The notes under the pieces are model-generated. The model did no database searches. It saw only the letters and a list, made by a program, of their open reading frames with translations, and was not told the DNA's origin. 64,000 nt of DNA. Origin: Lachnospiraceae bacterium. Its GTDB lineage: Bacteria > Bacillota > Clostridia > Lachnospirales > Lachnospiraceae. The number at the start of each line of letters is the position of its first letter. Position 1 is the stretch's first letter. The translations under genes and the position numbers were made by a program. The stretch covers positions 709 to 64,708 of the forward strand of contig JAFWCK010000126.1 in NCBI GenBank assembly GCA_017536965.1, given 5' to 3'. Positions 7,165 through 43,041 of the stretch are shown here, piece by piece.

Positions 7165-8550
7165 TTACTCTTTCGGAGGATTATTATTTCTCCCTCTGTT
7201 TTCTCCCTGCGTTCTTCGTGCCTCCAACGCCTTTGCTCTCCTCATTGCGCGCAGCTTTTCTCTCTTCTTTCTCTGCTGTGTACGGACGATCAAGAGAATC
7301 ACGAACGCAATGACCAGGACTGCAATGATCGCAAGAATGGTAATAAGGACTTTATTGATACCTTTTTTCGCCGGAGCCGGAGACGGTTCTGCCCGCGAAG
7401 CCTCTTCTTCCGGGGTCAACTGAGGCTCTGGCTGAGGATTCGTTGTAAGCGCTGTATAAGCTGTTCTGTATGAATAGTCACAGTTGGTACAAGTGTATTC
7501 TGTGTAGCCATATTCAGTCTCAGTGCTGGCTACTACCCTGCTCTCCATATTTGGTTCATCGCAGGAATGAGGCTGCAAGACAAGATAGGTGTCTGTATCC
7601 CAGTCATAAAAATCATCGAAAAAGAGTTCATCGCGGTAAAAATTGTCTTCGTTAAAATCATCCTTTTCGAAATTCCAATTCATGATCTCTCCGATAAAGG
7701 CCTCGCAGTATGCCCTTCTGTCTTCATTATCCTCATAGAAAGTAATAAAGCCATCTACCGCATTGCCGGTCATCGTTCCATACTGACCATTATCTTCCGG
7801 ATAGAAGATATACATTCCAACCAGTCCGCCATCGTGGACATAACCATGGTCCGTGTCATATCCTTTGATACTGATATGATTATTTACCAGATCAATATAT
7901 CCTGCTGCGTAAGCACCGCCCATGAACTGTTCTTCTTTATAATCTACGTCTTCGTCAATACAAATTAAGGTCACGTTCGCATCAGAGTTCTCGATCCGTC
8001 CATATCCGTAACCGGCAAAGCCACCCGTGCCGAAACATTTAGCATTCGTGGAAACCTTTACTTGTCCTTCAACCATGCAGTTCGAAATAGTACTGTTTTC
8101 CATCATACCGGCAATACTGCCTGCAAAGCACGGATTTCCCGTATCCACATTCACATCCACACCCAGGAATTTCAGGTTCGATACATTCGCATTTTTCAGA
8201 ATATTAAAGAATCCGGAAAAATAAGTGTCATACTGAACCATATTTCCATCATAGGTAGAAGTACGTGTCGCACCGCATCCGTTCACTTTCAGATTCAGGA
8301 TCGCGTGATTATTACCATCCAAAGTCCCCCGAAAGTCAATTGGCGTCCAAATCTGTGAGGAACAGTCAATATCTGCCATCAGTTTAAACGACCCTTCCGG
8401 ATTTCTCCCCAACTGAAGCAGGTCTTCATACGTATAAATCTCCACTGCTTCGTCCGCTTTCACGTTCATGGTCCGGAATGTACCTGCAAACAGGAGCGAA
8501 AGCATCAGCAGCGCCGCAATATACAGATACCTCTTTTTTGTTCTTCCCAT
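7165..8550 (-). CDS. Secreted, C-terminally membrane-anchored protein with GLUG-like repeats
   Basis: Signal peptide (MGRTKKRYLYIAALLMLSLLFAG), repeated GGFAGY / GGLVG segments, Pro/Glu linker, TM helix and a basic tail. Confidence 0.5.
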   Translation of the reverse strand: MGRTKKRYLYIAALLMLSLLFAGTFRTMNVKADEAVEIYTYEDLLQLGRNPEGSFKLMADIDCSSQIWTPIDFRGTLDGNNHAILNLKVNGCGATRTSTYDGNMVQYDTYFSGFFNILKNANVSNLKFLGVDVNVDTGNPCFAGSIAGMMENSTISNCMVEGQVKVSTNAKCFGTGGFAGYGYGRIENSDANVTLICIDEDVDYKEEQFMGGAYAAGYIDLVNNHISIKGYDTDHGYVHDGGLVGMYIFYPEDNGQYGTMTGNAVDGFITFYEDNEDRRAYCEAFIGEIMNWNFEKDDFNEDNFYRDELFFDDFYDWDTDTYLVLQPHSCDEPNMESRVVASTETEYGYTEYTCTNCDYSYRTAYTALTTNPQPEPQLTPEEEASRAEPSPAPAKKGINKVLITILAIIAVLVIAFVILLIVRTQQRKKREKLRAMRRAKALEARRTQGENRGRNNNPPKE

Positions 8551-33731: not shown

Positions 33732-34031
33732 TTACTCGATCGTCAGGATCTCGTTAAAACCGGTCACCTCGAAGATCTCCATGATGGTATCATTGACATG
33801 GATCACTTTCATGGTTCCCTGATTGTTAATGATTTTCTGTGCAGAAAGCAATACTCTAAGGCCTGCAGAAGAGATATAATCCAGTTTTTCAAAATCCAGA
33901 ACCAGATTAGTTGTCTCTACTAATGCCTCCTGAAGGGATGCCTCCAACTCTGGCGCTGTAACGGTATCCAGTCTCCCCTCCAGCTGGTAAAGAATGGAAT
34001 CTTTTTCCTGTGTTTTCTGAATATTCAGCAT
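33732..34031 (-). CDS. STAS-domain anti-sigma-factor antagonist (SpoIIAA/RsbV-like)
   Basis: 99 aa; LDYISSAGLRVLL phosphorylatable-Ser motif. Confidence 0.85.
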   Translation of the reverse strand: MLNIQKTQEKDSILYQLEGRLDTVTAPELEASLQEALVETTNLVLDFEKLDYISSAGLRVLLSAQKIINNQGTMKVIHVNDTIMEIFEVTGFNEILTIE

Positions 34032-34109
34032 AGTTTTCTCACTTTCTTAAATGCATTCTTACGTGTTTTTATTATGAAGATACAAGTTTTATTTGTCCAG
34101 TATTTTTGA

Positions 34110-34147
34110 AGATAGCGGAAACCCTGTTCCATGGATTTCCGCTATCT
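34110..34147. terminator. 12-bp-stem hairpin just 3' of tRNA-Leu(UAG)
   Basis: AGATAGCGGAAA-N14-TTTCCGCTATCT; no clean U-tract on the minus strand. Confidence 0.45.
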
Positions 34148-34150
34148 TTG

Positions 34151-34231
34151 TGCGAGTGACAGGACTTGAACCTGCACGGAAAGTCCACCAGATCCTAAGT
34201 CTGGCGCGTCTGCCAGTTCCGCCACACTCGC
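34151..34231 (-). tRNA. tRNA-Leu (anticodon TAG)
   Basis: The reverse complement folds as GCGAGTG acceptor, GCGGAACTGGCAGACGC D-arm, CCAGA-CTTAGGA-TCTGG anticodon arm, long variable arm, GCAGGTTCAAGTCCTGT T-arm, and CACTCGC-A. Confidence 0.9.
34209..34231. repeat. attL core (equals tRNA-Leu nt 1-23)
   Basis: Identical 23-mer at 41569-41591. Confidence 0.85.
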
Positions 34232-34257
34232 TTTGTAAAGCATTGTCGCTGTTTGTG

Positions 34258-34285
34258 ATTATATCTGAAAACCTTGATATTTCAA
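34258..34285 (-). promoter_or_regulatory. Sigma-A-like promoter inside the element, reading into tRNA-Leu(UAG)
   Basis: Minus strand TTGAAA (34285-34280) - 16 nt - TATAAT (34263-34258), about 27 nt upstream of the tRNA 5' end. Confidence 0.6.
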
Positions 34286-34346
34286 GCAAAATCACGCAAG
34301 TTCTTTTTCGTTTCTCTCTGTCTTGATTTATTACACTTTACCTTTT

Positions 34347-34389
34347 TACCTCAAAAATTGAGGTAAATTTTGAGGTAAAAATTGAGGTA
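34347..34389. repeat. Cluster of four TTGAGGTA octamers (one inverted), candidate integrase arm-type sites
   Basis: TACCTCAA 34347-34354; TTGAGGTA at 34359, 34370 and 34382. The same ATTGAGGTAAAAATTGAGGTA occurs at 41486-41506. Confidence 0.7.
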
Positions 34390-35562
34390 CTAGACCGCAA
34401 AGCTGATCTTGGACAGCTCTTCGTGCTTTGTATTCGGCATAACGTGTGCATATAAATCCATTGTCATTTTTAATGTGCTATGTCCTAACAGAGCTTTTAA
34501 GGTGTTCGGCTGCATACCCTGTTCAATACACCGGGTAGCGAATGTGTCCCGGAATCCATGTACTGTGAACGGAGCGAAGAATCCTTTTTCCTTTTCATTG
34601 ATCTTTGAGATTATATGCTCCAAACAGGCATCAACGGAATTGTAATGAGCCAGCGTTCCTTTTGTACTCGGAAAGACAATAGCGTTACTCGATCCGAACA
34701 GCATTGAATTTTTCTCTTTCTGATCCAGCAGAATCTTTTTGAGATCATCCGTCAGAGGGATAGTCCTGTTGCTGCTGCCTGTTTTCGGGGAATCTGACAA
34801 ACTATATTCTTTGTTTGAAACCTTTGAAACGGTTTTCCCGATGCGGATTTCATTTCTGTTGAAATCCACATCAAACCAAGTGAGGGCTGCTGCCTCTCCG
34901 ATCCGACACCCGGTAATAAGCAGAAATCGAAACAGATTATAGTAATAACTGCCCTCTGCGTTTTTCATCAGCAGCTTTGTTTCTTCAACCGTCAATGCTC
35001 TGTGATTTGTGAGAGCTGCTTTCGGCTTTTCAGATTTCAAAGTCTTTATGCCGTTGCATGGATTATAGTTGATGATCCTGTCATTAATTGCACTATTAAG
35101 AATCTGCTTGAGCAATCTTGTCACCCGGTTGATTGTGTCAGCCGTGAGGGTGATCTTTTCTCCGTTCTTGTCCGTTGCAAGTTCACCTTTCTTGTTCTTG
35201 CGATACTCTTTCTTCATGGCTGTTTGCATTTGCAGCACATCCATTTTTGAAATAGTGACAATCTGCCGTTTTCCTAAATACTTTTCAAGGTGTTGCCAAG
35301 ATTTCTTATAGCTGTATATTGTAGAGGTCTTAACCTCTTTCGCCTGTTCCTCAATCCAAAAGGAATAGTATTTTTCCAGCGTGATCTTGTGATTGTCAAT
35401 GTGCATACGATTCTTTAAGCGTTCCAGCAACTCGTCTTTTTTCTCTTCACATTCTGTCTGTGTATGTCCGTATACGAAATGCCGGACACCCTCAAAAGTA
35501 AAGGCTAATCTGTATAGCTGCTTTCCTCGATCGTAATAGAATCCTTTAGGTAATCTTTTCAT
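34390..35562 (-). CDS. int: Tyrosine recombinase (phage-type integrase)
   Basis: 390 aa; C-terminal catalytic blocks GCRIGEAAAL (Arg), HGFRDTFATR (H-x-x-R), LGHSTLKMTMDLYAHV (His...Tyr). Confidence 0.9.
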   Translation of the reverse strand: MKRLPKGFYYDRGKQLYRLAFTFEGVRHFVYGHTQTECEEKKDELLERLKNRMHIDNHKITLEKYYSFWIEEQAKEVKTSTIYSYKKSWQHLEKYLGKRQIVTISKMDVLQMQTAMKKEYRKNKKGELATDKNGEKITLTADTINRVTRLLKQILNSAINDRIINYNPCNGIKTLKSEKPKAALTNHRALTVEETKLLMKNAEGSYYYNLFRFLLITGCRIGEAAALTWFDVDFNRNEIRIGKTVSKVSNKEYSLSDSPKTGSSNRTIPLTDDLKKILLDQKEKNSMLFGSSNAIVFPSTKGTLAHYNSVDACLEHIISKINEKEKGFFAPFTVHGFRDTFATRCIEQGMQPNTLKALLGHSTLKMTMDLYAHVMPNTKHEELSKISFAV

Positions 35563-35676
35563 ATCTGCTACCCCCTTTGCTATGCGGATAGCAGAAACGT
35601 AATAACCACGATTCGGATTATATACTTTTTTTCTGTTATCTGCAAGTATTATCTTTTATTTTTGTTTGTGTTGTGG

Positions 35677-35939
35677 TATAATATTTTATTTTTCTTTATT
35701 ATGAAATTTCCTTTTGAAAGCCCCTAATTCGCCATTACAGGGCTTTTAGGGTCTTTGTGAAGGTTTTATTGTTTTTGGATTAATTGTCTGAAATCGCTTG
35801 CAATACGGCTGTAATTTGATAAGATAAAGACGGAAACACCGTTTCCAGCTGGCAAGTCTCTGACCCCGGCAACATCGTTTGGTCGGTGGGCGGTGTTTCG
35901 CTGACGGTTTTAGGCTACCCCCTTTGACCGTCTTTTTTT
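35677..35939 (+). ncRNA. Candidate about 250-nt non-coding transcript (extended -10 promoter to intrinsic terminator) between int and the upstream ORF
   Basis: TGGTATAAT at 35674-35682. Hairpins AAAGCCC...GGGCTTT and GAAACACCG...CGGTGTTTC. Terminator GACGGT-N18-ACCGTC plus T7 (35903-35939). No ORF longer than 8 codons. Confidence 0.4.
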
Positions 35940-35954
35940 ATGATCCGGCAGCAG

Positions 35955-36251
35955 TTATTTGATCTGCTGCCGTTCGTTTGCCTCAATGCCATAATCCCTT
36001 TTCATGGCTACTTTCCAGAGTTCATACTCAAGGGCTGCTATTGCTCTTGCTGCTGCCTCGGGTGTTTTAGCTCTGATTGTGTATTTCTCGTCACCAATCT
36101 CTGAATATGTCTCAAGTTCCAGCGTGATAGACACGGCATTTTCTTTTTTGCTCTTTCCGCTTGCAATACCGCCTTTTCGTCCCATTTCTGAAAGCTGTTC
36201 TTTCGTCCGCTGGCTGTTCGGAATCAGATTTTTTAAACTGTTCGGATTCAT
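35955..36251 (-). CDS. Hypothetical protein with N-terminal basic KGG-type segment (NPNSLKNL...GRKGGIASGKSKKE)
   Basis: ORF track with an AGGGA RBS; the N-terminal motif is seen in many phage/plasmid small proteins (recollection only). Confidence 0.5.
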   Translation of the reverse strand: MNPNSLKNLIPNSQRTKEQLSEMGRKGGIASGKSKKENAVSITLELETYSEIGDEKYTIRAKTPEAAARAIAALEYELWKVAMKRDYGIEANERQQIK

Positions 36252-36352
36252 ATTTCCCTTTCTGCTTCTTTATTCTCTCGTGCGTGCGTGCGTGAAAGCA
36301 TCCTTTAACTCTTTGAATCGGGGTGAATCGGGCTTTGAATTGCTTGCCGTTT

Positions 36353-36748
36353 TTAGGGGTCGGAAATCTTGCATATTGCTTTTTCAATATTATTCTTGAT
36401 CAACTGCAATCTATGTAGCTCCGTCCCGGGTGGAATGTCCCCGGCAACAATCGACATATCCTTTTTTATTTGTGGCAGCAGCTCCCGATCCCCTGTCATA
36501 AGCCCGATACACTCTACAGCTTTCAACAAAAGTACCTTTGTCTCTTTCCCTTGCTGTATGCCTTTTACAAGCTCCGTTCTGCACTCCCCAGCTCTTTTGA
36601 TATTCTCTTGGTATTCTTTATAGGCTTTCCGTATCTGCTGCCGTTCTGCCTGTTCCGCAAACAAGGAATTATCCGGCAAGCTCTCCGGCAGCTTATTTGA
36701 TCTGCTGCCGGGAGCAATCTTTTCAAGGGCTGTGAAATCTATCTGCAT
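36353..36748 (-). CDS. Hypothetical protein
   Basis: ORF track; AAGAGG RBS; the start overlaps the stop of the helicase gene. Confidence 0.5.
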   Translation of the reverse strand: MQIDFTALEKIAPGSRSNKLPESLPDNSLFAEQAERQQIRKAYKEYQENIKRAGECRTELVKGIQQGKETKVLLLKAVECIGLMTGDRELLPQIKKDMSIVAGDIPPGTELHRLQLIKNNIEKAICKISDP

Positions 36749-37926
36749 CGGTCAGCCTCTTTAAAATAATTAAACCTCGGATAGTACTGATACTTGATCC
36801 GGTCTCCTGTTCTGCCGTTTCTGTTTTTCAAAATAACCGCCTCGATTTCCCTAGGGTCTTTGCTCTTTGCCTCGGTAGGATCAAAATCAGCTTCACCAAT
36901 TCCGGCAAGGTCAAGCCCGATTACTACATCCGATCCATACTCAAGGCTGCCGGATTCTTTGAAACCGCTGAAATCAGCTTTCGTTTTATATCCGGCTCTG
37001 TTGAAACTGCTGATTGCAATTACAGGGCTTTTAAAGTCTCTGCTGATCCGCTTCAGTTCCAATACCGCCTTATCAATATTCTGCTTGTCGCTTGCCTTAA
37101 TATCGTAAGGGGCTAAAATCTGCACATAGTCAACTACCACAACCGGGATATTACCTAGAATTCTTGTGTGCCTTTCAACCGCCTCTCTGATCTGATTAAC
37201 CCCTATATCTCCTATCCCCTCATAAATGAAAATGTGTTCTGCGTATGTGCCGTACTCCTTTATAGCCGATTTGATCAACTGCCGTTCCTGTTCGGAATAA
37301 TTCTTATATCGTGATCCGTCTGTGATCCCTCTTGCTGTTTTTGCGTTATCCATTCCGGCTTTGAGCATTGTTAATCTCGAAACAGATTTTGAGATTAAGT
37401 CCTCTTTCGGCATTTCCATGGCAAATATGATCACATCATTTCCCTGTGCTGCGATCTGATCTGCCATCTGCATGATTAGCGTTGTCTTTCCCAGCGAAGT
37501 AATTGCCCCCACAACATACAGACCGCTATACAATCCACCGTCCAGCACTTGATCAAGTGTCGGAAATCCCGATCTGATCACCGGGGAATTCATTGAAGCA
37601 GCTATACCGTCAACAAACTCTTGTAAATATCCGGCAGCAGATTCTTTTTGCAACTGCTGCCGTTCTTCCTCAATCGTTTTCGCCTCGGTCTTTTCAACGT
37701 ACTCTTTCAAACTATTCTTTGTTTCCTCAATGCTTTGCCCTTTGCGTTCCGCATCAGTCAATATTTCAATCACGCTTGCCCCGGTCAGCCCTGTTCGGCT
37801 GGCATAGTCTGTGATTTCTTCCAATGTCAGCCCGAAGTGATCAATACCATAGGCTATAATTGCCCCGGTACTCGTCAAATCGTTCTGTTCTTCCCTCAAT
37901 ACCTCTTGTACTTCTTTTAGTTCCAT
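36739..37926 (-). CDS. DnaB-like replicative helicase (RecA-fold C-terminal domain with a unique N-terminus)
   Basis: Walker A GAITSLGKTT, Walker B VVVDYVQIL, SRDFKSPVIAISSFNR. Confidence 0.8.
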   Translation of the reverse strand: MELKEVQEVLREEQNDLTSTGAIIAYGIDHFGLTLEEITDYASRTGLTGASVIEILTDAERKGQSIEETKNSLKEYVEKTEAKTIEEERQQLQKESAAGYLQEFVDGIAASMNSPVIRSGFPTLDQVLDGGLYSGLYVVGAITSLGKTTLIMQMADQIAAQGNDVIIFAMEMPKEDLISKSVSRLTMLKAGMDNAKTARGITDGSRYKNYSEQERQLIKSAIKEYGTYAEHIFIYEGIGDIGVNQIREAVERHTRILGNIPVVVVDYVQILAPYDIKASDKQNIDKAVLELKRISRDFKSPVIAISSFNRAGYKTKADFSGFKESGSLEYGSDVVIGLDLAGIGEADFDPTEAKSKDPREIEAVILKNRNGRTGDRIKYQYYPRFNYFKEADRCR

Positions 37927-38138
37927 TATTTCTCCTGTCTCATATTCCAGCGTTCAACAACTCTCCGGCTTACCACATCAAGAGTATTAATCGGATTGTT
38001 GCCAACAGCCAGCCAATCGTTATTAATGCACCGGGTACACTTCACTTTGACAATGTGTCGGGGTTTTCCCTCGCTGTATTCTTCGATCAGCTCTGCCGGG
38101 CTGCCACAATATTTACAATTCGATAATTTCATATTCAA
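37926..38138 (-). CDS. Lar-family-like zinc-ribbon protein (restriction alleviation-like)
   Basis: 70 aa; CKYCG...CTRC plus C-terminal VVERWNMR, resembling the Lar CxxC...CxxC...AWNRR pattern. Confidence 0.5.
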   Translation of the reverse strand: MNMKLSNCKYCGSPAELIEEYSEGKPRHIVKVKCTRCINNDWLAVGNNPINTLDVVSRRVVERWNMRQEK

Positions 38139-38210
38139 CGATATTTCCTCATTTGTCTTTCTGATCCATCAAAGGGGAATCGCCTCTCTCAAAAGAGCGA
38201 TTTCCCCCTT

Positions 38211-38262
38211 TCTAGAAATTTCTAAAAATTTCTAAAAATTAAGAAAAATTTCTAACCTCGGA
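38211..38262. repeat. AT-rich tract with four AAATTTCTA(A/G) repeats, candidate DNA-unwinding element
   Basis: TCTAGAAATTTCTAAAAATTTCTAAAAATTAAGAAAAATTTCTAACC. Confidence 0.55.
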
Positions 38263-38301
38263 AACCCTAGGGGGACAAGGCTTTGCAGAATCGCCACCCG
38301 A

Positions 38302-38383
38302 AGTAATACGGAGCTTTAGCGGTAGTAATACGGAGCTTTAGCGGTAGTAATACGGAGCTTTAGCGGTAGTAATACGGAGCTTT
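38302..38383. repeat. Iterons: 22-bp direct repeat AGTAATACGGAGCTTTAGCGGT x 3.7
   Basis: Perfect copies at 38302, 38324 and 38346, plus a 16-bp partial copy at 38368 that abuts the Rep-like stop codon. Confidence 0.9.
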
Positions 38384-39259
38384 TTACTCTCCCGGCATCT
38401 CAAAAATCACAAGTCTTTCAGCAAAGGAATGATAGTTTTCGCCCGGGTCAATCGGCTTGTCATATCTCCAGTCATTGATCACCCCGGCTCTTTTGATCAC
38501 ATCTAAATTTGCTTCAAAAGGTTTTCTGATCCTGTCTCGCCAACTGTCACGCTGTTTTAAAACGTTCTCGTAATCCGGCAAGCTGGACACATTGAGCAGC
38601 GTTCCCACCTTTAACCGATCCGATGATCCTTTACCTCTGTTGCCCTTGTTCCCGGAATGGGTGATGATCTTTGAGGCTATAGCATAGGCTGTTTGATTCT
38701 TTCCGCTGATCCGCATCAGCTCTTTTGGAATTTTCACTAAAGGCTTTTTATGAAGATACTCCGCAAAAGTCTGTCCGAATCTCATTGTGATCCTGTTCCG
38801 TTTAACCTCTCCTACACTATCCAGCAGATTGACACTCTGCCACCTTTTGCCGTCATCCCACGAAAGCTGGACAGCCTGTAAGGTTTTCAAGTCCTGTCTA
38901 ATCTGCTCGTGTGCGTGATCTCTCCGGCTCTTTGTGCTTATGTCATATCCCACAAGGCAGCAGTACTCATCAAAAGGAATCGTGACAGGGCGGTTGATCG
39001 TCTTGCTTTTTCCGAATCCGTTTTGAATCGTGAAAGCAGCAAGCCCGGCAATCAGCAGATTATTTGTCCCAACGCCGAGACCGCTTTTCAATCCGAATTT
39101 ATGCAACCCGAAATCCACTCCGAGCTTATTAATCCTAACTTCGCCTGTGACAGAATCGGCAGCAGCCCTTTTGCTAGTGACTGCTGCCATTGCATCAATA
39201 GGCTTTGCGTGATGAATGGTCAGCACTTCCGGCATTGTTCCGGGCTTTTCATTCTTCAT
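38384..39259 (-). CDS. Putative replication initiator (Rep-like, winged-helix type)
   Basis: ORF 38384..39355. I prefer ATG 39259 (MKNEKPG), which overlaps the Xis-like stop by 11 nt. Adjacent to the iterons. Similarity to Rep proteins is only pattern-level (NQTAYAIASKIITH). Confidence 0.45.
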   Translation of the reverse strand: MKNEKPGTMPEVLTIHHAKPIDAMAAVTSKRAAADSVTGEVRINKLGVDFGLHKFGLKSGLGVGTNNLLIAGLAAFTIQNGFGKSKTINRPVTIPFDEYCCLVGYDISTKSRRDHAHEQIRQDLKTLQAVQLSWDDGKRWQSVNLLDSVGEVKRNRITMRFGQTFAEYLHKKPLVKIPKELMRISGKNQTAYAIASKIITHSGNKGNRGKGSSDRLKVGTLLNVSSLPDYENVLKQRDSWRDRIRKPFEANLDVIKRAGVINDWRYDKPIDPGENYHSFAERLVIFEMPGE

Positions 39260-39470
39260 CTGCTGCCTCAAGCTGTACGGTATCGTTTTCGGAAAAGTAC
39301 TCGTCAATTTTCCGAAGATCATATACACATCTTTTCCCAATCCGTTTTTCCGCACCGATCTTTACGGCTGTTACTTTTGCTGTTTGAGTTCCTACTCCCA
39401 TATAATCGGCAGCAGCTCTCAAGTTCACAAAGCGTTTGTCATTGTTTGCGTCAACATTTCTAAATTTCAT
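39249..39470 (-). CDS. Excisionase/AlpA-like small HTH DNA-binding protein
   Basis: 73 aa; FVNLRAAADYMGVGTQTAKV HTH; first gene of the leftward operon. Confidence 0.55.
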   Translation of the reverse strand: MKFRNVDANNDKRFVNLRAAADYMGVGTQTAKVTAVKIGAEKRIGKRCVYDLRKIDEYFSENDTVQLEAADEE

Positions 39471-39497
39471 TATTCTTTACCTCGTTTTTTTATATTT

Positions 39498-39542
39498 TGA
39501 AGTACTTCATGTTGACAGAATACAGTCCATAAGGTGTATAAT
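39498..39542. promoter_or_regulatory. Divergent switch region: 12-bp palindrome TGAAGTACTTCA plus a rightward TTGACA / TGTATAAT promoter
   Basis: Palindrome 39498-39509; TTGACA 39512-39517; TGTATAAT 39535-39542. Confidence 0.55.
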
Positions 39543-39587
39543 CAATTTGTCAATAGATTAAATTTTAGTGAGGTATATAAAAGAAAT

Positions 39588-40268
39588 ATGTCTAATTCAT
39601 TTTACACATTCACGCAAGAAGAATTGAAAACGATCAGCAACAGATTACAAGCAAAAATGCAAGCTGCCGGAATATCGCAGCGACAGCTTGCGAATAAGAG
39701 CAAGGTCTCTCGTGCCAATATCAACGACATGATAAACGGACATTATTCTTCTGACGGTAGCAACGAGAAAGTGTTCCGCAATCACAAGCCGGAAACATAC
39801 AAAAAAATATGTGACGGTTTTGATATATTAGGCGAAGTATGCAGCATGGAATATCTACTCGGAGAGGTGAGGCAATCGACACACGATCTACAATTCATCT
39901 GTGATTACACCGGGCTATCAGAGGAAGCTGTGAGAAAACTGCACGAACAGAAATCAGACCCTCTAAATCTGCTTCAACTACAAGTTTTATCTACCGCTAT
40001 TGCAAAAACCGATCTGTCTGCTCGTATGGCTGATTATTGGCAGCTACAGCCAGCAAGCGAATCAGCTAATATAACATTGGAATACCGAGAAAAAAATATC
40101 ATCAATCACACCATTACTACCGGGGCAACAGAAAGCAAACATACTGATCCGAGTATCAGAATCAATGGGGTGGACATAGGCTTGCAGACCGTCAAAGAAG
40201 TTGTTCTAAAGGAAATCCAAAAAGAATTAGAGCTTATGATTAAAGAGGATCAGAAGAAACCTCGCTGA
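39588..40268 (+). CDS. XRE-family HTH regulator with an uncharacterised C-terminal domain of about 150 aa (candidate element repressor)
   Basis: ORF 39534..40268, but its first ATG overlaps the -10 box. ATG 39588 follows GTGAGGT. HTH ISQRQLANKSKVSRANINDMINGH. Confidence 0.65.
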   Translation: MSNSFYTFTQEELKTISNRLQAKMQAAGISQRQLANKSKVSRANINDMINGHYSSDGSNEKVFRNHKPETYKKICDGFDILGEVCSMEYLLGEVRQSTHDLQFICDYTGLSEEAVRKLHEQKSDPLNLLQLQVLSTAIAKTDLSARMADYWQLQPASESANITLEYREKNIINHTITTGATESKHTDPSIRINGVDIGLQTVKEVVLKEIQKELELMIKEDQKKPR

Positions 40269-40292
40269 TTATATTTGACATTTGTTCACCTT

Positions 40293-40380
40293 GATTTTCC
40301 TTGTAAAATTTTTTCGGGGTCGTGTTTTTTCTGAAAATATTTTTCGGGGGTAATTTTCCCTTGAAAAATTTTTTGAGGGT
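40293..40380. repeat. Three tandem direct repeats of about 29 bp (TTG-AAAAT-TTTTCGGGGT type)
   Basis: Units at 40293-40323, 40324-40351 and 40352-40380. Confidence 0.8.
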
Positions 40381-40634
40381 CAAGGTACCATGGCATGTTT
40401 TTTTGCCTGCCTCTCACGTGCAATATACTCTTCCCCTTTTCCTCGGGGGTTCCCTACCGTTTCTCTTTTTCCTTTTTGGAGCAGCTTCACAAGGTGTTAC
40501 CGGGGTTTCACATACTCCATTTAAGTAAAGCAAAGGTATATTTCAAATCATAAAAAGGAGACAACACAAAAAGACAAACAAGAACAACACCACAGACCAC
40601 CAACAATATAGATCTAGAATGATGTAAACAGTAT

Positions 40635-40675
40635 AAAAAAACAGTCTCTTTTTAAGAAAAAAGACTGCTTTTTCA
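40635..40675. terminator. Bidirectional intrinsic terminator inside the element
   Basis: CAGTCTCTTTTT-AAG-AAAAAAGACTG with an A-run before it and CTTTTT after it. Confidence 0.65.
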
Positions 40676-41049
40676 TATAAAACAGCTGCAAAAAAGGTCA
40701 AAAACGATGCAATTTAATGCTGATTTGTGTCTATTTTATTCTATTTTCATGGCTCCTACGAATCGGTTAATTGTGTTTGATACGGTTAAGTATGATAGAG
40801 AATCTTTCCCTGTTTCTGTAAATGTTGGACACGGTATAGTCGACAGCAAGTATCATATCTACGATATAACAGAAAGCATAAAAAATACCGCCGTCTTGGA
40901 GCGGGTCGGAGACTTGCGCTCTGATAGCGATATTTCTTTAAATATTTTTTATCACAAGCAGTAGAAAATAGCAAGCTTTCTCGTTCCTTCAATTCGACGG
41001 GCAAACAACTACAATGGTTAAATCATTTGCAAAAATCGTACGTTGCAAT

Positions 41050-41250
41050 TTACTGCTGATTTGTGTCTATTTTATTCTTGTTTTTTTCGTAGCTCCTGCC
41101 AGAATTGAAGCCGACTACAAAACCGTAATCGATCAGTCTGAACGGTGTCCCTTCTGCCAGAGAATAGATGGCGCTCATATCCTTCGCGGTCAGCATTCTC
41201 GATTCAGGTATTTTTGTTTCGTCAACGATCTTCTTCACGTTTCTATTCAT
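41050..41250 (-). CDS. Hypothetical small protein (66 aa)
   Basis: ORF track; the start overlaps the stop of the upstream 63-aa ORF by 8 nt. Confidence 0.45.
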   Translation of the reverse strand: MNRNVKKIVDETKIPESRMLTAKDMSAIYSLAEGTPFRLIDYGFVVGFNSGRSYEKNKNKIDTNQQ

Positions 41251-41434
41251 GGTCTACCTCTCCTGTGATCCATTGTCTCTGCTGCATTTCCTGTATTCCT
41301 GCTTTTATTCCGGCTTCGTCCTTTGCAATTATCAATATCTGCCCTGTAATCAGATCAACGTGAAACCGATTCTCTGCTCCGGCATCAATAACTGCTGTTA
41401 CATTCTCTCCCATGTTCTGAATCTTTTCAACCAT
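41243..41434 (-). CDS. Hypothetical small protein (63 aa)
   Basis: ORF track; strong AAAGGAG RBS 9 nt upstream of the ATG. Confidence 0.5.
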   Translation of the reverse strand: MVEKIQNMGENVTAVIDAGAENRFHVDLITGQILIIAKDEAGIKAGIQEMQQRQWITGEVDHE

Positions 41435-41568
41435 GTTCTTATTCTCCTTTCAGTATGCCTCGATCTGATAACTTTTTCAGACCCGATTGAGGTAAAAATT
41501 GAGGTAATTGTTTGAACAAGACATAAAAAATGCTGGAAACTCAAGGTCTCCAGCATTATTATTACGTT

Positions 41569-41591
41569 TCTGCCAGTTCCGCCACACTCGC
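41569..41591. repeat. attR core: orphan 5' fragment of tRNA-Leu(UAG)
   Basis: Identical to 34209-34231. Lies 4 nt downstream of the stop of the 41596..43041 gene. Sequence diverges from the tRNA after nt 23. Confidence 0.85.
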
Positions 41592-41595
41592 CTTT

Positions 41596-43041
41596 TTATT
41601 CCTGTCCGGAGCTGGAAACATCCGGTGTTGGCACTGTCTCTGATTCCGGTTCAGTTTCCGGCTGTGCATCCCGGGAAAGAGTATCTACAAATACTACATT
41701 TCCTTCCAGGGCTTCCATTGCCTTATCATATTTGAAATCCAGGTTTGTGAATAAATACAGCCATTCTTCCCCGGACTGCTCCTTGAACTCTTCTAATGTA
41801 TAAGTATCGTTATATCCGCTTCTTGCCATATACTCTACGATTGCCTGATCTACTTCCTCGTCTGTATAGGTCAATTCTTTATCCTTAAAGATCTGATCGA
41901 TCAGCATGATCAGGTTCAGATAATAATGTGCTTCATCCAATGCATAGTCCTCTGCAGAGGTATAGCCATACATTTGTGCATAGGTATCTGCATCATAACC
42001 ATACATTGCAGCATTGTATTCCAGAGACTTTTTCGTATAATTCACCAGATTTGCTTCCTGCTCAGGATCATAGGTCTTTACAACTTGTTTCGCCTGCAGG
42101 TCCTGCATCATAGCTTCATGCAGATAAAAATGATAGATGTAATCACGGATATATTCTTTCAGTTCATCTACTGTATTCAGCTGCTTCGGCAGGTAGTTGT
42201 AAGAATAGTCTTTTACAAAATCATCATTGCACTCCGGCGTTTCATTCTTGGTTCTGGATTTGATCGTTATCTCAAACACAGCAGGTTTTCCAGCCAGATC
42301 TTTATTATCATAATCTTCCGGGAAGACGACGTTAACATTAACGGTCGATCCGATTTTCTGTCCAACAAGGCCTTCTTCAAATCCGGCAATATATCTGCCA
42401 GCTCCGACTGTACAGGATTGATTTTCTGCTGTTCCGCCAGCAAATTCTTCTCCTGTTGCAGTCAGTTTACCTTTAAAATCTATTGTCAGAAGATCTCCTT
42501 CTGCAACCGTTCCTTCAGTTTCCTGGATCTGTTTGGTTTGAGACTGCACCAGGCTCTGCAGATAACTGTCAACTGTTTCATCTGTTACTTCCACAGCAGA
42601 ATTCAGAACCTCGATGCGGGAGTAATCTGCCATTTCCATCTCTGCTTCGACCGGTTTTTCCGGGAATTTGATCCAGTTCAATTTATAAGCAACAAAACCA
42701 AGGCAAGCCAGAACGATCACTGCGCAGACAACGATGACGATCACATTCGTCTTGTCCAGTTTCTTTTTCTTTTTGATAATTGGCTTTTCCGCTGTTTTAC
42801 CAGTTGCTTGTTCCAGTTTCTCGGATGCTTCTTCTACTTTCTCAGCTGCCTCTTCCACTTTTTCTTCTGCAGCTTCTACTGCCGCTTCCGCTTCCTGAAC
42901 AGCTTCCTCAGCATTTTCCACTGTTTCTTCCACAGTTTCTTTTGCCTCAGCAACCGTCTCTTCAGCAGTTTCTGCTGCCTCAGCGACCGTCTCTTCTGCG
43001 GCATCTGTCATGTTTTCCAAGTCTTTTTTCATTTCTTCCAT
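41596..43041 (-). CDS. Membrane-anchored trigger-factor-like protein (acidic N-terminal repeats, TM helix, FKBP-type PPIase and TF C-terminal-like region)
   Basis: 481 aa; AEETVAEA-type acidic repeats; TM VIVIVVCAVIVLACLGFVAY; PPIase block GDLLTIDFKGKL...FAGG...IAGFEEGLVG. Confidence 0.6.
   Translation of the reverse strand: MEEMKKDLENMTDAAEETVAEAAETAEETVAEAKETVEETVENAEEAVQEAEAAVEAAEEKVEEAAEKVEEASEKLEQATGKTAEKPIIKKKKKLDKTNVIVIVVCAVIVLACLGFVAYKLNWIKFPEKPVEAEMEMADYSRIEVLNSAVEVTDETVDSYLQSLVQSQTKQIQETEGTVAEGDLLTIDFKGKLTATGEEFAGGTAENQSCTVGAGRYIAGFEEGLVGQKIGSTVNVNVVFPEDYDNKDLAGKPAVFEITIKSRTKNETPECNDDFVKDYSYNYLPKQLNTVDELKEYIRDYIYHFYLHEAMMQDLQAKQVVKTYDPEQEANLVNYTKKSLEYNAAMYGYDADTYAQMYGYTSAEDYALDEAHYYLNLIMLIDQIFKDKELTYTDEEVDQAIVEYMARSGYNDTYTLEEFKEQSGEEWLYLFTNLDFKYDKAMEALEGNVVFVDTLSRDAQPETEPESETVPTPDVSSSGQE

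What the first reader, a model, noticed from the sequence alone, without database searches (positions are those of the whole stretch)
34209..34285. Integration into the 5' end of tRNA-Leu(UAG), with the element supplying both tRNA nt 1-23 and a promoter
The duplicated 23-mer is the first 23 nt of the tRNA (acceptor 5' strand through the D-loop), not the 3' part that is usually duplicated by tRNA-targeting integrases. The orphan fragment (41569-41591) sits 4 nt after the stop codon of the trigger-factor-like gene. Before integration the tRNA therefore probably lay directly behind that gene. The intact tRNA is now 7.4 kb away from that context. It is preceded by element DNA carrying a good TTGAAA-16-TATAAT promoter about 27 nt upstream of its 5' end. 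The element appears to have taken over expression of a host tRNA.
Basis: partly seen in the sequence, partly recalled or inferred. Interest (0 to 1): 0.62.

Follow-up and report, generated by a model that had tools for sequence, protein, structure and literature searches.

The report
Mobile element re-promoting a host tRNA
A 7.4-kb self-replicating mobile element of an uncultured gut Lachnospiraceae bacterium has inserted at the front end of a leucine tRNA gene, and it brings its own copy of the first 23 tRNA bases, a promoter-like sequence in front of them and a terminator behind them; this is a rare but already reported insertion geometry, seen here in a new integrase group.

Summary
tRNA-Leu(UAG) lies at 34150-34231 (-). 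Its first 23 nt recur perfectly at 41569-41591, 4 nt after the stop of a trigger-factor-like gene. A TTGAAA-16-TATAAT match ends 26 nt upstream of the tRNA.

The repeat is the recombination core. Two same-genus genomes have the uninterrupted site. Public metagenome contigs show the empty site (attB), both junctions (attL, attR) and the circular junction (attP), all with these boundaries. In one sample the element is a free circle at about 2x chromosome depth.

All 13 examined elements with an integrase at least about 44% identical place a tRNA-Leu 5' segment 160-230 nt after int. More distant integrases do not.

attP reads promoter, then tRNA nt 1-23, then terminator. After insertion, tRNA transcription must start inside the element, and host transcription stops at the element's terminator.

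Two cautions apply.
- The -10 element is not conserved across the clade, and the -35 lies inside a conserved arm motif.
- No RNA data set contains the element, so promoter use is inferred.

Insertion at the 5' end or D-loop of a tRNA gene is already published for Klebsiella islands and pelagiphages.

Verdict: real, a new variant of a known kind, of moderate interest.

The parts
34150..34231 (-). Intact tRNA-Leu(UAG). Its 3' part (34150-34208) is host DNA; nt 1-23 are the attL core.
   Evidence: ARAGORN; identical tRNA in the empty-site genomes L001 and L002.
34209..34231 (-). attL copy of the 23-nt core, equal to tRNA nt 1-23 (acceptor 5' strand, D-stem 5' strand, D-loop).
   Evidence: Exact direct repeat D17; joint '41568 -> 34209 goes back 7360' with 23 shared letters in circular-form contigs.
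34258..34285 (-). Element-borne sigma-70-like promoter TTGAAA-16-TATAAT. The -10 ends 26 nt upstream of tRNA nt 1; the start site is predicted at about 34250.
   Evidence: Scores 11 of 12 and is the best site in the region; shuffle P about 0.001; same hexamers and spacing in L280 attP. Function is inferred, not measured.
34267..34297 (-). Conserved P-arm block GCGTGATTTTGC-TTGAAATATCAA-GGTTTTC, a palindrome followed by a T run. It overlaps the -35.
   Evidence: Lies at a fixed distance from the core in at least 8 related elements. Its function is unknown; a binding site for an accessory protein is suspected.
34346..34389 (.). Arm-type repeats (TTGAGGTA units) of the P arm, directly after the int stop codon.
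   Evidence: Repeat family D2. Every relative has its own repeat word at the same two positions.
34390..35562 (-). Tyrosine integrase, 390 aa.
   Evidence: PF00589 E=1e-27; phrog_1 integrase E=7e-70; invariant R220, H335, R338, H361, Y371 across 35 clade members.
35591..35605 (.). Perfect inverted copy of the core-P' junction (GCAGAAACGTAATAA), 29-43 nt upstream of the int start. Candidate Int core-type site for autoregulation.
   Evidence: Inverted repeat I10. L280 has the equivalent pair with a matching base change.
36739..37926 (-). DnaB-like helicase of the element.
   Evidence: PF03796 E=4e-35; phrog_19.
38302..39355 (-). Replication module: 22-bp iterons (38302-38383) and a Rep3-like initiator (38384-39355).
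   Evidence: Repeat family D1; PF01051 Rep3_N at 24.1 bits against a cut-off of 22.4; circular-form contigs break at the iterons.
39249..40268 (.). Divergent pair: a DUF6462 small protein (39249-39470, minus strand, excisionase-like position) and an XRE-type HTH regulator (39534-40268, plus strand).
   Evidence: Pfam hits; the same gene pair in relatives L014, L016, L281 and L285.
41487..41506 (.). Arm-type repeats of the P' arm (TTGAGGTAAAAATTGAGGTA).
   Evidence: Repeat family D2, 100% identical to 34370-34389.
41529..41557 (-). Element-borne intrinsic terminator (12-bp stem plus T run), starting 11 nt after the orphan tRNA fragment. It ends host transcripts from the trigger-factor-like gene and shields the element.
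   Evidence: Best terminator in the region; folds at -20.9 kcal/mol; equivalent hairpin plus T run in L280 and L014.
41569..41591 (-). attR copy of the core: orphan tRNA nt 1-23, next to the host flank.
41596..43041 (-). Host trigger-factor-like gene: an FKBP PPIase with an acidic coil and a membrane segment in place of the ribosome-binding N-domain. Its stop codon lay 4 nt before the tRNA in the empty site.
   Evidence: empty-site genomes.

Best explanation
The segment 34232-41568 is a 7.36-kb integrative, self-replicating element. It carries an iteron/Rep origin, a DnaB-like helicase, an XRE regulator, a small excisionase-like protein and a tyrosine integrase with arm-type sites.

Its integrase belongs to a clade, so far seen only in gut and rumen Clostridia assemblies, that recombines in the D-loop region of tRNA-Leu genes. 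attP holds a copy of tRNA nt 1-23. Insertion therefore rebuilds the tRNA from its 5' side and leaves the element upstream of the tRNA.

In this element attP is a cassette: a near-consensus promoter, 26 nt, tRNA nt 1-23, 11 nt, then an intrinsic terminator. After insertion the promoter faces the rebuilt tRNA and most likely transcribes it with a leader of about 19 nt. The terminator sits behind the orphan fragment, ends the host gene's transcript and keeps host transcription out of the element.

- Shown: the geometry, the core, the four att forms, the circular form, and the clade-wide target.
- Inferred: that the promoter fires, that the terminator stops transcription, and that the crossover lies in the D-loop.
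For: - Exact 23-nt repeat equal to tRNA nt 1-23.
- Uninterrupted sites in two same-genus genomes at 94% identity, with the tRNA 4 nt after the stop codon.
- Contigs from public runs:
  - X10 holds a 6982-nt contig at depth 26.5 that crosses the attP joint, plus an attB contig at depth 15.2, against host flanks at about 14.
  - X9 also holds the attP joint.
  - X1 holds attL and attR at depth 80-85, against host flanks at 181-206, and an attB 37-mer at depth 168.
  - X13 holds both attB and attR.
- In 13 of 13 elements with an integrase at least about 44% identical, a tRNA-Leu 5' segment (anticodons UAG, CAG, CAA) lies 160-230 nt after int and on the same strand. None of the roughly 240 more distant loci shows this.
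- L014 repeats the 23-nt duplication at a tRNA-Leu(CAG) gene.
- The promoter scores 11 of 12 with shuffle P about 0.001. L280 attP has TTGATT-17-TATAAT at the same distance, followed by core and terminator. Phage-borne attP sites (L282, L284) have TTGACA-18-TAAACT 9-10 nt before the core.
- The host flank that used to feed the tRNA is now followed by a 12-bp-stem terminator.
- RNA contigs of empty-site strains run from 36-72 nt inside the host gene through the tRNA. The native 5' leader is therefore host DNA that the element has displaced.
Against: - No transcript data exist for an occupied site.
- The -10 hexamer is not conserved. L016 (same site, int 63% identical) scores 6 of 12, and L281, L127, L014, L286 and L287 score 7-9 of 12, no better than shuffles.
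- The -35 lies within a conserved palindromic block that also occurs in the P' arm and may serve recombination.
- int is on the same strand 159 nt upstream, so read-through could supply the tRNA.
- The MAG holds a second tRNA-Leu(UAG) on a small contig, so selection on this copy may be weak.
Confidence: 0.72

Rival explanations
1. The geometry is as described, but the promoter match is incidental. The TTGAAA is part of a recombination-architecture motif of the P arm, and the TATAAT is a chance AT-rich hexamer. The tRNA is fed by read-through from the int operon or from weak starts.
For: - The conserved block containing TTGAxx lies at a fixed distance from the core in at least 8 elements, and a similar palindrome lies in the P' arm.
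- The -10 is absent or poor in about half of the clade, including L016 at the same tRNA site.
- int and the tRNA are on the same strand with no strong terminator between them.
Against: - An 11 of 12 match with a perfect TATAAT at 16 nt is rare in shuffles (P about 0.001).
- The closest relative keeps TATAAT at the same position although the leader behind it has diverged.
- Phage members carry a separate TTGACA promoter next to the core.
- int is expected to be kept low in the integrated state.
Confidence: 0.2
2. The promoter-core-terminator cassette serves the element in its circular state, and feeding the tRNA is a side effect. It could make an RNA of about 90 nt, or set the 3' end and stability of int mRNA differently in the free and integrated states, as the lambda sib site does.
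For: - In attP the promoter is followed within about 60 nt by a strong terminator.
- The element does exist as a free circle at about 2 copies per chromosome.
- A copy of the core-P' junction upstream of int, with a matching base change in L280, points to att-linked control of int.
Against: - No RNA data exist.
- A short RNA made of a leader plus 23 tRNA bases has no evident target.
- The cassette's two halves each have an obvious job after insertion.
- The terminator is also present where the promoter is weak (L014).
Confidence: 0.06
3. The 23-nt repeat is not a recombination core. It would be a remnant of a tRNA duplication or an assembly artefact, with the element inserted by other means.
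For: None beyond the fact that the window comes from a metagenome-assembled genome.
Against: attB, attL, attR and attP are all seen in independent runs with breakpoints at exactly these 23 nt. Empty sites exist in two other genomes. The same layout recurs in 13 related elements.
Confidence: 0.01

Closest known systems
Klebsiella genomic islands integrated upstream of the arg2 tRNA gene ('D-loop sublocation'; bioRxiv 10.1101/2020.11.02.365908)
   Same: A tyrosine-integrase island lies upstream of the tRNA. [quoted passage not shown]
   Different: The phylum (Proteobacteria), the tRNA (Arg) and the island sizes differ. That paper mentions promoters only for host transcription units and describes no element-borne promoter or terminator at attP. 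Whether the integrases are related was not tested.
HTVC019P-type pelagiphages whose core overlaps the 5' end of tRNA-Cys or tRNA-Leu (bioRxiv 10.1101/410191)
   Same: The attP core equals the 5' end of a host tRNA, including tRNA-Leu, and the tRNA is unchanged after integration, which was verified experimentally there.
   Different: These are lytic-capable podoviruses of SAR11. Some carry whole tRNA genes instead. The word 'promoter' does not occur in the text.
Classical tDNA integration sublocations (anticodon loop, T-loop, 3' end; Williams 2002, as summarised)
   Same: An integrase with arm-type sites, a core that rebuilds the tRNA, and a loop flanked by stem symmetry as the likely crossover site.
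   Different: It is the mirror image. The 5' rather than the 3' part is duplicated, and the element lies upstream, so the tRNA loses its promoter instead of its terminator.
dusA-associated integrases (NAR 2015, PMC4482086)
   Same: The element replaces the 5' end of its target gene with its own copy. Putative -35 and -10 elements are found upstream of the rebuilt gene after insertion.
   Different: The target is a protein-coding gene, and no terminator behind the displaced fragment was described there.
Lambda sib retroregulation (general knowledge, not tested here)
   Same: A transcription or RNA-processing signal lies across attP from int, so its linkage to int depends on the integration state.
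   Different: sib acts through an RNase III site on int mRNA. Here the signal is an intrinsic terminator, and its effect on int is unknown.

Membership tests
Tyrosine recombinase / phage integrase family | C-terminal catalytic domain with the R..H-x-x-R..H..Y residues | tested here: met
   PF00589 E=1.1e-27 over residues 190-375. R220, H335, R338, H361 and Y371 are invariant in 35 clade members.
Heterobivalent (lambda-type) integrase system | Arm-type repeats in both the P and P' arms, distinct from the core | tested here: met
   TTGAGGTA units lie at 34346-34389 and 41487-41506. Each relative has its own repeat word at the same two positions.
Heterobivalent (lambda-type) integrase system | N-terminal arm-binding domain that binds those repeats | not tested
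   Pfam names only SAM-like and catalytic domains. The first 60 residues or so have no family hit. No structure was predicted.
tDNA integration at the 5' end / D-loop sublocation | The direct repeat equals the 5' part of the tRNA, the element lies upstream of the intact tRNA, and the orphan 5' fragment lies at the far end | tested here: met
   The same layout is seen in L014 and in attP of 10 relatives.
tDNA integration at the 5' end / D-loop sublocation | The repeat is the actual crossover region (attB x attP gives attL + attR) | tested here: met
   All four forms appear in public contigs with 23 shared letters at the joint, and empty sites exist in two genomes. The position of strand exchange inside the 23 nt is not resolved.
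Classical 3'-side tDNA integration (anticodon loop, T-loop, 3' end) | The 3' part of the tRNA is duplicated and the element lies downstream of the tRNA | tested here: not met
   The repeat covers nt 1-23 only, and the element faces the tRNA 5' end. Distant relatives L193, L196, L199, L274, L278 and L279 show the classical arrangement.
Iteron-type (Rep3) theta replicon | Rep initiator with a WH1 domain next to tandem iterons, and existence as a free circle | tested here: met
   Rep3_N scores 24.1 bits against a cut-off of 22.4, which is weak. 22-bp iterons abut the rep gene. The circular form is at about 2x host depth with an empty chromosomal site in X10. Replication itself was not shown.
Phage satellite (PICI-like) | Genes that redirect helper packaging (capsid, small terminase, or similar), plus int, a regulator and a replication module | tested here: not met
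   The int, regulator and replication modules are present. No capsid or packaging family was found among 10 element proteins in Pfam or PHROGs, although several small ORFs have no hits. Relative L287 does carry a capsid gene.

The most novel reading that the evidence does not exclude
The promoter, tRNA(1-23) and terminator cassette is a purpose-built 'transcription adaptor' of a clade that targets tRNA 5' ends.

- In the free circle it would make an RNA of about 90 nt holding a tRNA-Leu 5' fragment, with a regulatory role of its own.
- After insertion it would put the supply of a host leucine tRNA under the element's control. The host's decoding of CUA/CUN codons would then depend on the element, which amounts to a form of addiction or host tuning.
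- The terminator would insulate the element from the host's tRNA or upstream-gene promoter.
Probability: 0.12. Interest if true: 0.7.

Novelty: new variant of a known kind. Interest (0 to 1): 0.42.

Why it matters
Elements that insert at the 3' side of a tRNA gene only need to replace the gene's tail. One that inserts at the 5' side cuts the tRNA off from its promoter and exposes itself to host transcription.

This locus and its relatives suggest how that double problem may be solved, by an attP site built as promoter, core and terminator. They also define a previously uncharacterised integrase clade in gut and rumen Clostridia. The clade is shared by small replicons, a capsid-bearing satellite-like element and large phages, and all of them target the conserved D-arm of tRNA-Leu.

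The practical value is modest:
- a new, predictable attB (the tRNA-Leu 5' end) for integrase tools in Lachnospiraceae;
- a caution for island finders that expect 3' fragments;
- a testable case of a mobile element controlling expression of a host tRNA.

Tried and rejected
- **Single-protein search of species-representative genomes.** It found no relatives.
- **Profile searches of genome, metagenome and viral collections.** They returned mostly integrases below 46% identity, which are not next to tRNA-Leu 5' fragments. Clade members had to be fetched one by one from assemblies.
- **Search of 401 genomes of the same order.** It gave only distant integrases with no adjacent tRNA, apart from one classical tRNA-Thr case.
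- **RNA evidence.** Three RNA-run searches found metatranscriptomes holding only the empty-site form. The element itself is in no run labelled RNA. X9, of unknown kind, holds it at a depth too low to be informative.
- **Characterised phages.** The best integrase match in 50,697 records is 31% identical.
- **Literature searches for the phrase "5' end of tRNA".** They failed because the prime sign cannot be searched. A search for "provides a promoter" together with tRNA gene, integrase and attP found nothing. Williams 2002 is not held.
- **Hypothesis that a native tRNA promoter is retained.** Rejected. The only candidate (TTCACA-15-TATGAT, 133 nt upstream, inside the host gene) stays with the orphan fragment.
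- **Hypothesis that the promoter is a universal clade feature.** Rejected.

Full report
**1.

ARAGORN places tRNA-Leu(UAG) at 34150-34231 on the minus strand. The 23 bases at 34209-34231 recur exactly at 41569-41591, and identity stops on both sides (family D17). On the tRNA strand the repeat reads GCGAGTGTGGCGGAACTGGCAGA. This is nt 1-23: the acceptor 5' strand, nt 8-9, the 3-bp D-stem 5' strand and the whole D-loop.

The orphan copy ends 4 nt after the TAA stop of the ORF at 41596-43041. That ORF has an FKBP_C domain. It scores 174.5 bits against TIGR00115 trigger factor, just under the 180.2 cut-off, and matches only profile positions 101-390. 'Trigger-factor-like' is therefore a fair name.

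The promoter match TTGAAA-16-TATAAT spans 34285..34258 on the minus strand and scores 11 of 12. It is the best of 16 promoter-like sites in 9.8 kb, although the total number of sites is no more than shuffles give. Only about 1 in 1000 shuffles of the 110 nt upstream of the tRNA reach 11 of 12.

The best terminator-like site in the region (12-bp stem, T run, 41557..41529, minus strand, -20.9 kcal/mol) begins 11 nt after the orphan fragment and lies in element DNA.

**2. What lies between the repeats**

The segment 34232-41568 encodes:
- a tyrosine integrase (34390-35562, PF00589 E=1e-27);
- a DnaB-like helicase;
- a weak Rep3-type initiator that abuts 22-bp iterons;
- a small Lar-like protein;
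- a small DUF6462 protein in the position of an excisionase;
- a divergent XRE-type regulator.

No capsid or packaging family was found. TTGAGGTA repeats sit directly after the int stop codon (34346-34389) and again about 60 nt inside the other end (41487-41506), which is the layout of arm-type sites.

**3. The 23-mer is the recombination core**

A query made of the two joined flanks found uninterrupted matches at 94% identity in two other species of the same genus. In both, the tRNA's first base lies 4 nt after the stop codon of the trigger-factor-like gene.

Public metagenome contigs give all four att forms:
- **X10 (bovine gut).** A 6982-nt contig at depth 26.5 runs across the joint 41568 -> 34209 with 23 shared letters. 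It covers the whole element and breaks only at the iterons. A 48-nt contig at depth 15.2 shows the empty site. Host flanks are at about 14. The element there is a free circle, or less likely a tandem array, at about two copies per chromosome.
- **X9.** It shows the same joint.
- **X1.** attL and attR contigs are at depth 80-85, host flanks at 181-206, and an attB 37-mer at depth 168. The population is mixed.
- **X13.** It has both attB and attR.

These contigs come from an assembler, and their depths are rough.

**4. The target is a property of an integrase clade**

The 5.8-billion-protein search gave 880 relatives. I fetched the contigs of twelve of them.

Every element whose integrase is at least about 44% identical to the window's has a tRNA-Leu 5' segment 160-230 nt after the int stop, on the same strand.
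- **Integrated copies:**
  - L016-L021 sit at the same UAG tRNA, with the same STAS gene behind it.
  - L013 sits at another tRNA-Leu(UAG).
  - L014 sits at tRNA-Leu(CAG), with tRNA nt 1-23 repeated 5 kb upstream.
  - L289 sits at a tRNA whose anticodon loop reads CAA.
- **Free attP forms:** L280, L281, L127, L286, L287, L288, and the large phage contigs L282/L283 and L284.

Among about 240 loci with more distant integrases, none has this pattern. Several of them show the classical arrangement, with the tRNA 3' end facing the element.

The clade's cargo ranges widely. It includes 5-7-kb Rep/helicase or primase replicons, an element with a capsid gene (L287), and phages on 80-87-kb contigs. No characterised phage has an integrase closer than 31% identity.

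**5. attP architecture**

Aligned on the core, the elements share the following order:
- the int stop codon;
- three or four copies of an element-specific repeat word;
- a conserved block GCGTGATTTTCC-TTGAWAWATCAA-GKTTTTC that ends about 35 nt before the core;
- the core;
- about 22 nt later, a related palindrome;
- two more copies of the repeat word.

In the window and in L280 (int 69% identical) the block is followed by a perfect TATAAT, 16-17 nt after TTGAAA or TTGATT. In both, the P' palindrome is the loop of a strong hairpin followed by a T run. attP therefore reads promoter, tRNA nt 1-23, terminator. In the free circle this would give an RNA of about 90 nt.

After insertion the promoter faces the rebuilt tRNA. 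The terminator follows the orphan fragment and whatever host promoter used to feed the tRNA.

L014 illustrates the second point. A plausible native promoter (TTGCAC-17-TGtTATTAT) now points into the orphan fragment, and the element's hairpin plus T run follows it.

**6. How far the promoter claim goes**

Bacterial tRNA genes have no internal promoters; this is general knowledge. All native upstream DNA has moved 7.4 kb away and is now followed by a terminator. If this tRNA is expressed, its transcription therefore starts in the element.

In empty-site strains, metatranscriptome contigs (X25, X27) run from 36 and 72 nt inside the host gene through the tRNA, while the rest of the host gene is not assembled. 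The native leader is thus host DNA, fed either from the gene's own promoter or from a weak internal candidate 133 nt upstream. DNA carry-over in these libraries cannot be excluded.

Whether the 34285..34258 site is the start point remains untested, because no RNA run holds the element. Three findings weaken the claim:
- The -10 is not conserved. L280, L288, L282 and L284 score 10 of 12. L016, L281, L127, L014, L286 and L287 score 6-9 of 12, no better than shuffles. L016 sits at the very same tRNA site.
- The -35 is part of the conserved arm block, which may exist for recombination.
- int lies 159 nt upstream on the same strand.

I put the dedicated promoter at roughly two in three. The broader statement that the element now controls the tRNA's transcription is much more likely.

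**7. Where the crossover lies**

Identity ends exactly at the last D-loop base. In L281, L287 and L288 it runs 4-5 nt further, into the D-stem 3' strand.

A perfect inverted copy of the last 5 core bases plus 10 P' bases lies 29-43 nt upstream of the int start (inverted repeat I10). L280 has the same arrangement with a matching base change, ACGC in place of ACGT. This looks like an Int core-type half-site reused at the int promoter. It places one core site at the right edge of the 23-mer, and so places the overlap region in the D-loop. This is inference only.

**8. Comparison with what is known**

Insertion at the 5' side of a tRNA gene is rare but published.
- A Klebsiella survey describes islands upstream of arg2. 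Their recombination site is the 5' acceptor half plus the D-stem and D-loop, and the authors call the D-loop a novel sublocation.
- Pelagiphage cores overlap the 5' end of tRNA-Cys and tRNA-Leu.
- The Islander pipeline allows 5' fragments upstream of the tDNA.

Neither the Klebsiella nor the pelagiphage paper discusses an element-borne promoter or terminator. The nearest parallel is the dusA-specific islands, where putative -35 and -10 elements were noted upstream of the rebuilt gene. My searches for a description of promoter supply to a tRNA found none, but the library is incomplete.

**9. Verdict**

The feature is real and the geometry is proven. The mechanism is plausible but rests on sequence alone. 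It is a new variant of a known kind: a new Clostridia integrase clade using the tRNA-Leu D-loop/5' sublocation, with a promoter-core-terminator attP in some members. Interest is moderate.

Noticed in passing
window 35591-35605 and 41559-41573; L280:2158-2171: A 15-nt perfect inverted copy of the core-P' junction lies 29-43 nt upstream of the int start. The closest relative has the same pair with a matching base change. It is probably an Int core-type site that autoregulates int.
   Followed up: partly
window 34267-34297 and 41529-41550; same positions in L013, L014, L016, L127, L280, L281, L286: A conserved palindrome-plus-T-run block (GCGTGATTTTCC-TTGAWAWATCAA-GKTTTTC) lies at a fixed distance before the core, and a related palindrome lies about 22 nt after it. 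Its function is unknown; a site for an accessory or bending protein is suspected.
   Followed up: partly
window 34232-41568, as seen in runs X10 and X9: The element exists as a free circle at about 2x chromosome depth while the chromosomal site is empty. The X10 variant has the 855-nt segment 40351-41207 replaced by 498 other bases.
   Followed up: partly
window 33977-34231 and 41592-41663, as seen in RNA runs X25, X26 and X27: Metatranscriptome contigs join the 3' end of the trigger-factor-like gene to the tRNA in the empty-site form, and join the tRNA to the start of the downstream STAS gene. This suggests read-through on both sides of the tRNA.
   Followed up: partly
genome contig C37:59-142: A second tRNA-Leu(UAG), 88% identical and with an encoded CCA, lies on a 3.4-kb contig of the MAG. 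It is either a second gene copy or contamination; the MAG has 4% contamination.
   Followed up: no
window 41596-43041: The trigger-factor-like protein lacks the ribosome-binding N-domain. In its place it has an acidic, repeat-rich coil and a membrane segment, which suggests a membrane-anchored PPIase chaperone.
   Followed up: no
L282:13521-14702 and L283:8307-9488: The large phage that carries a clade integrase has a reverse-transcriptase gene (RVT_1) close to tail-fibre-like genes, possibly a diversity-generating retroelement.
   Followed up: no
L286, about 160 nt after int (core GCGGATATGGCAGAC): This attP core lacks 9 D-loop bases compared with the tRNA-Leu it resembles. It is either a variant core or an assembly collapse.
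   Followed up: no
L287:6263-7156 and 7427-8221: A relative with a clade integrase carries a D5-type primase, a capsid-family gene and a sigma-70-like gene, so it resembles a capsid-forming satellite.
   Followed up: no
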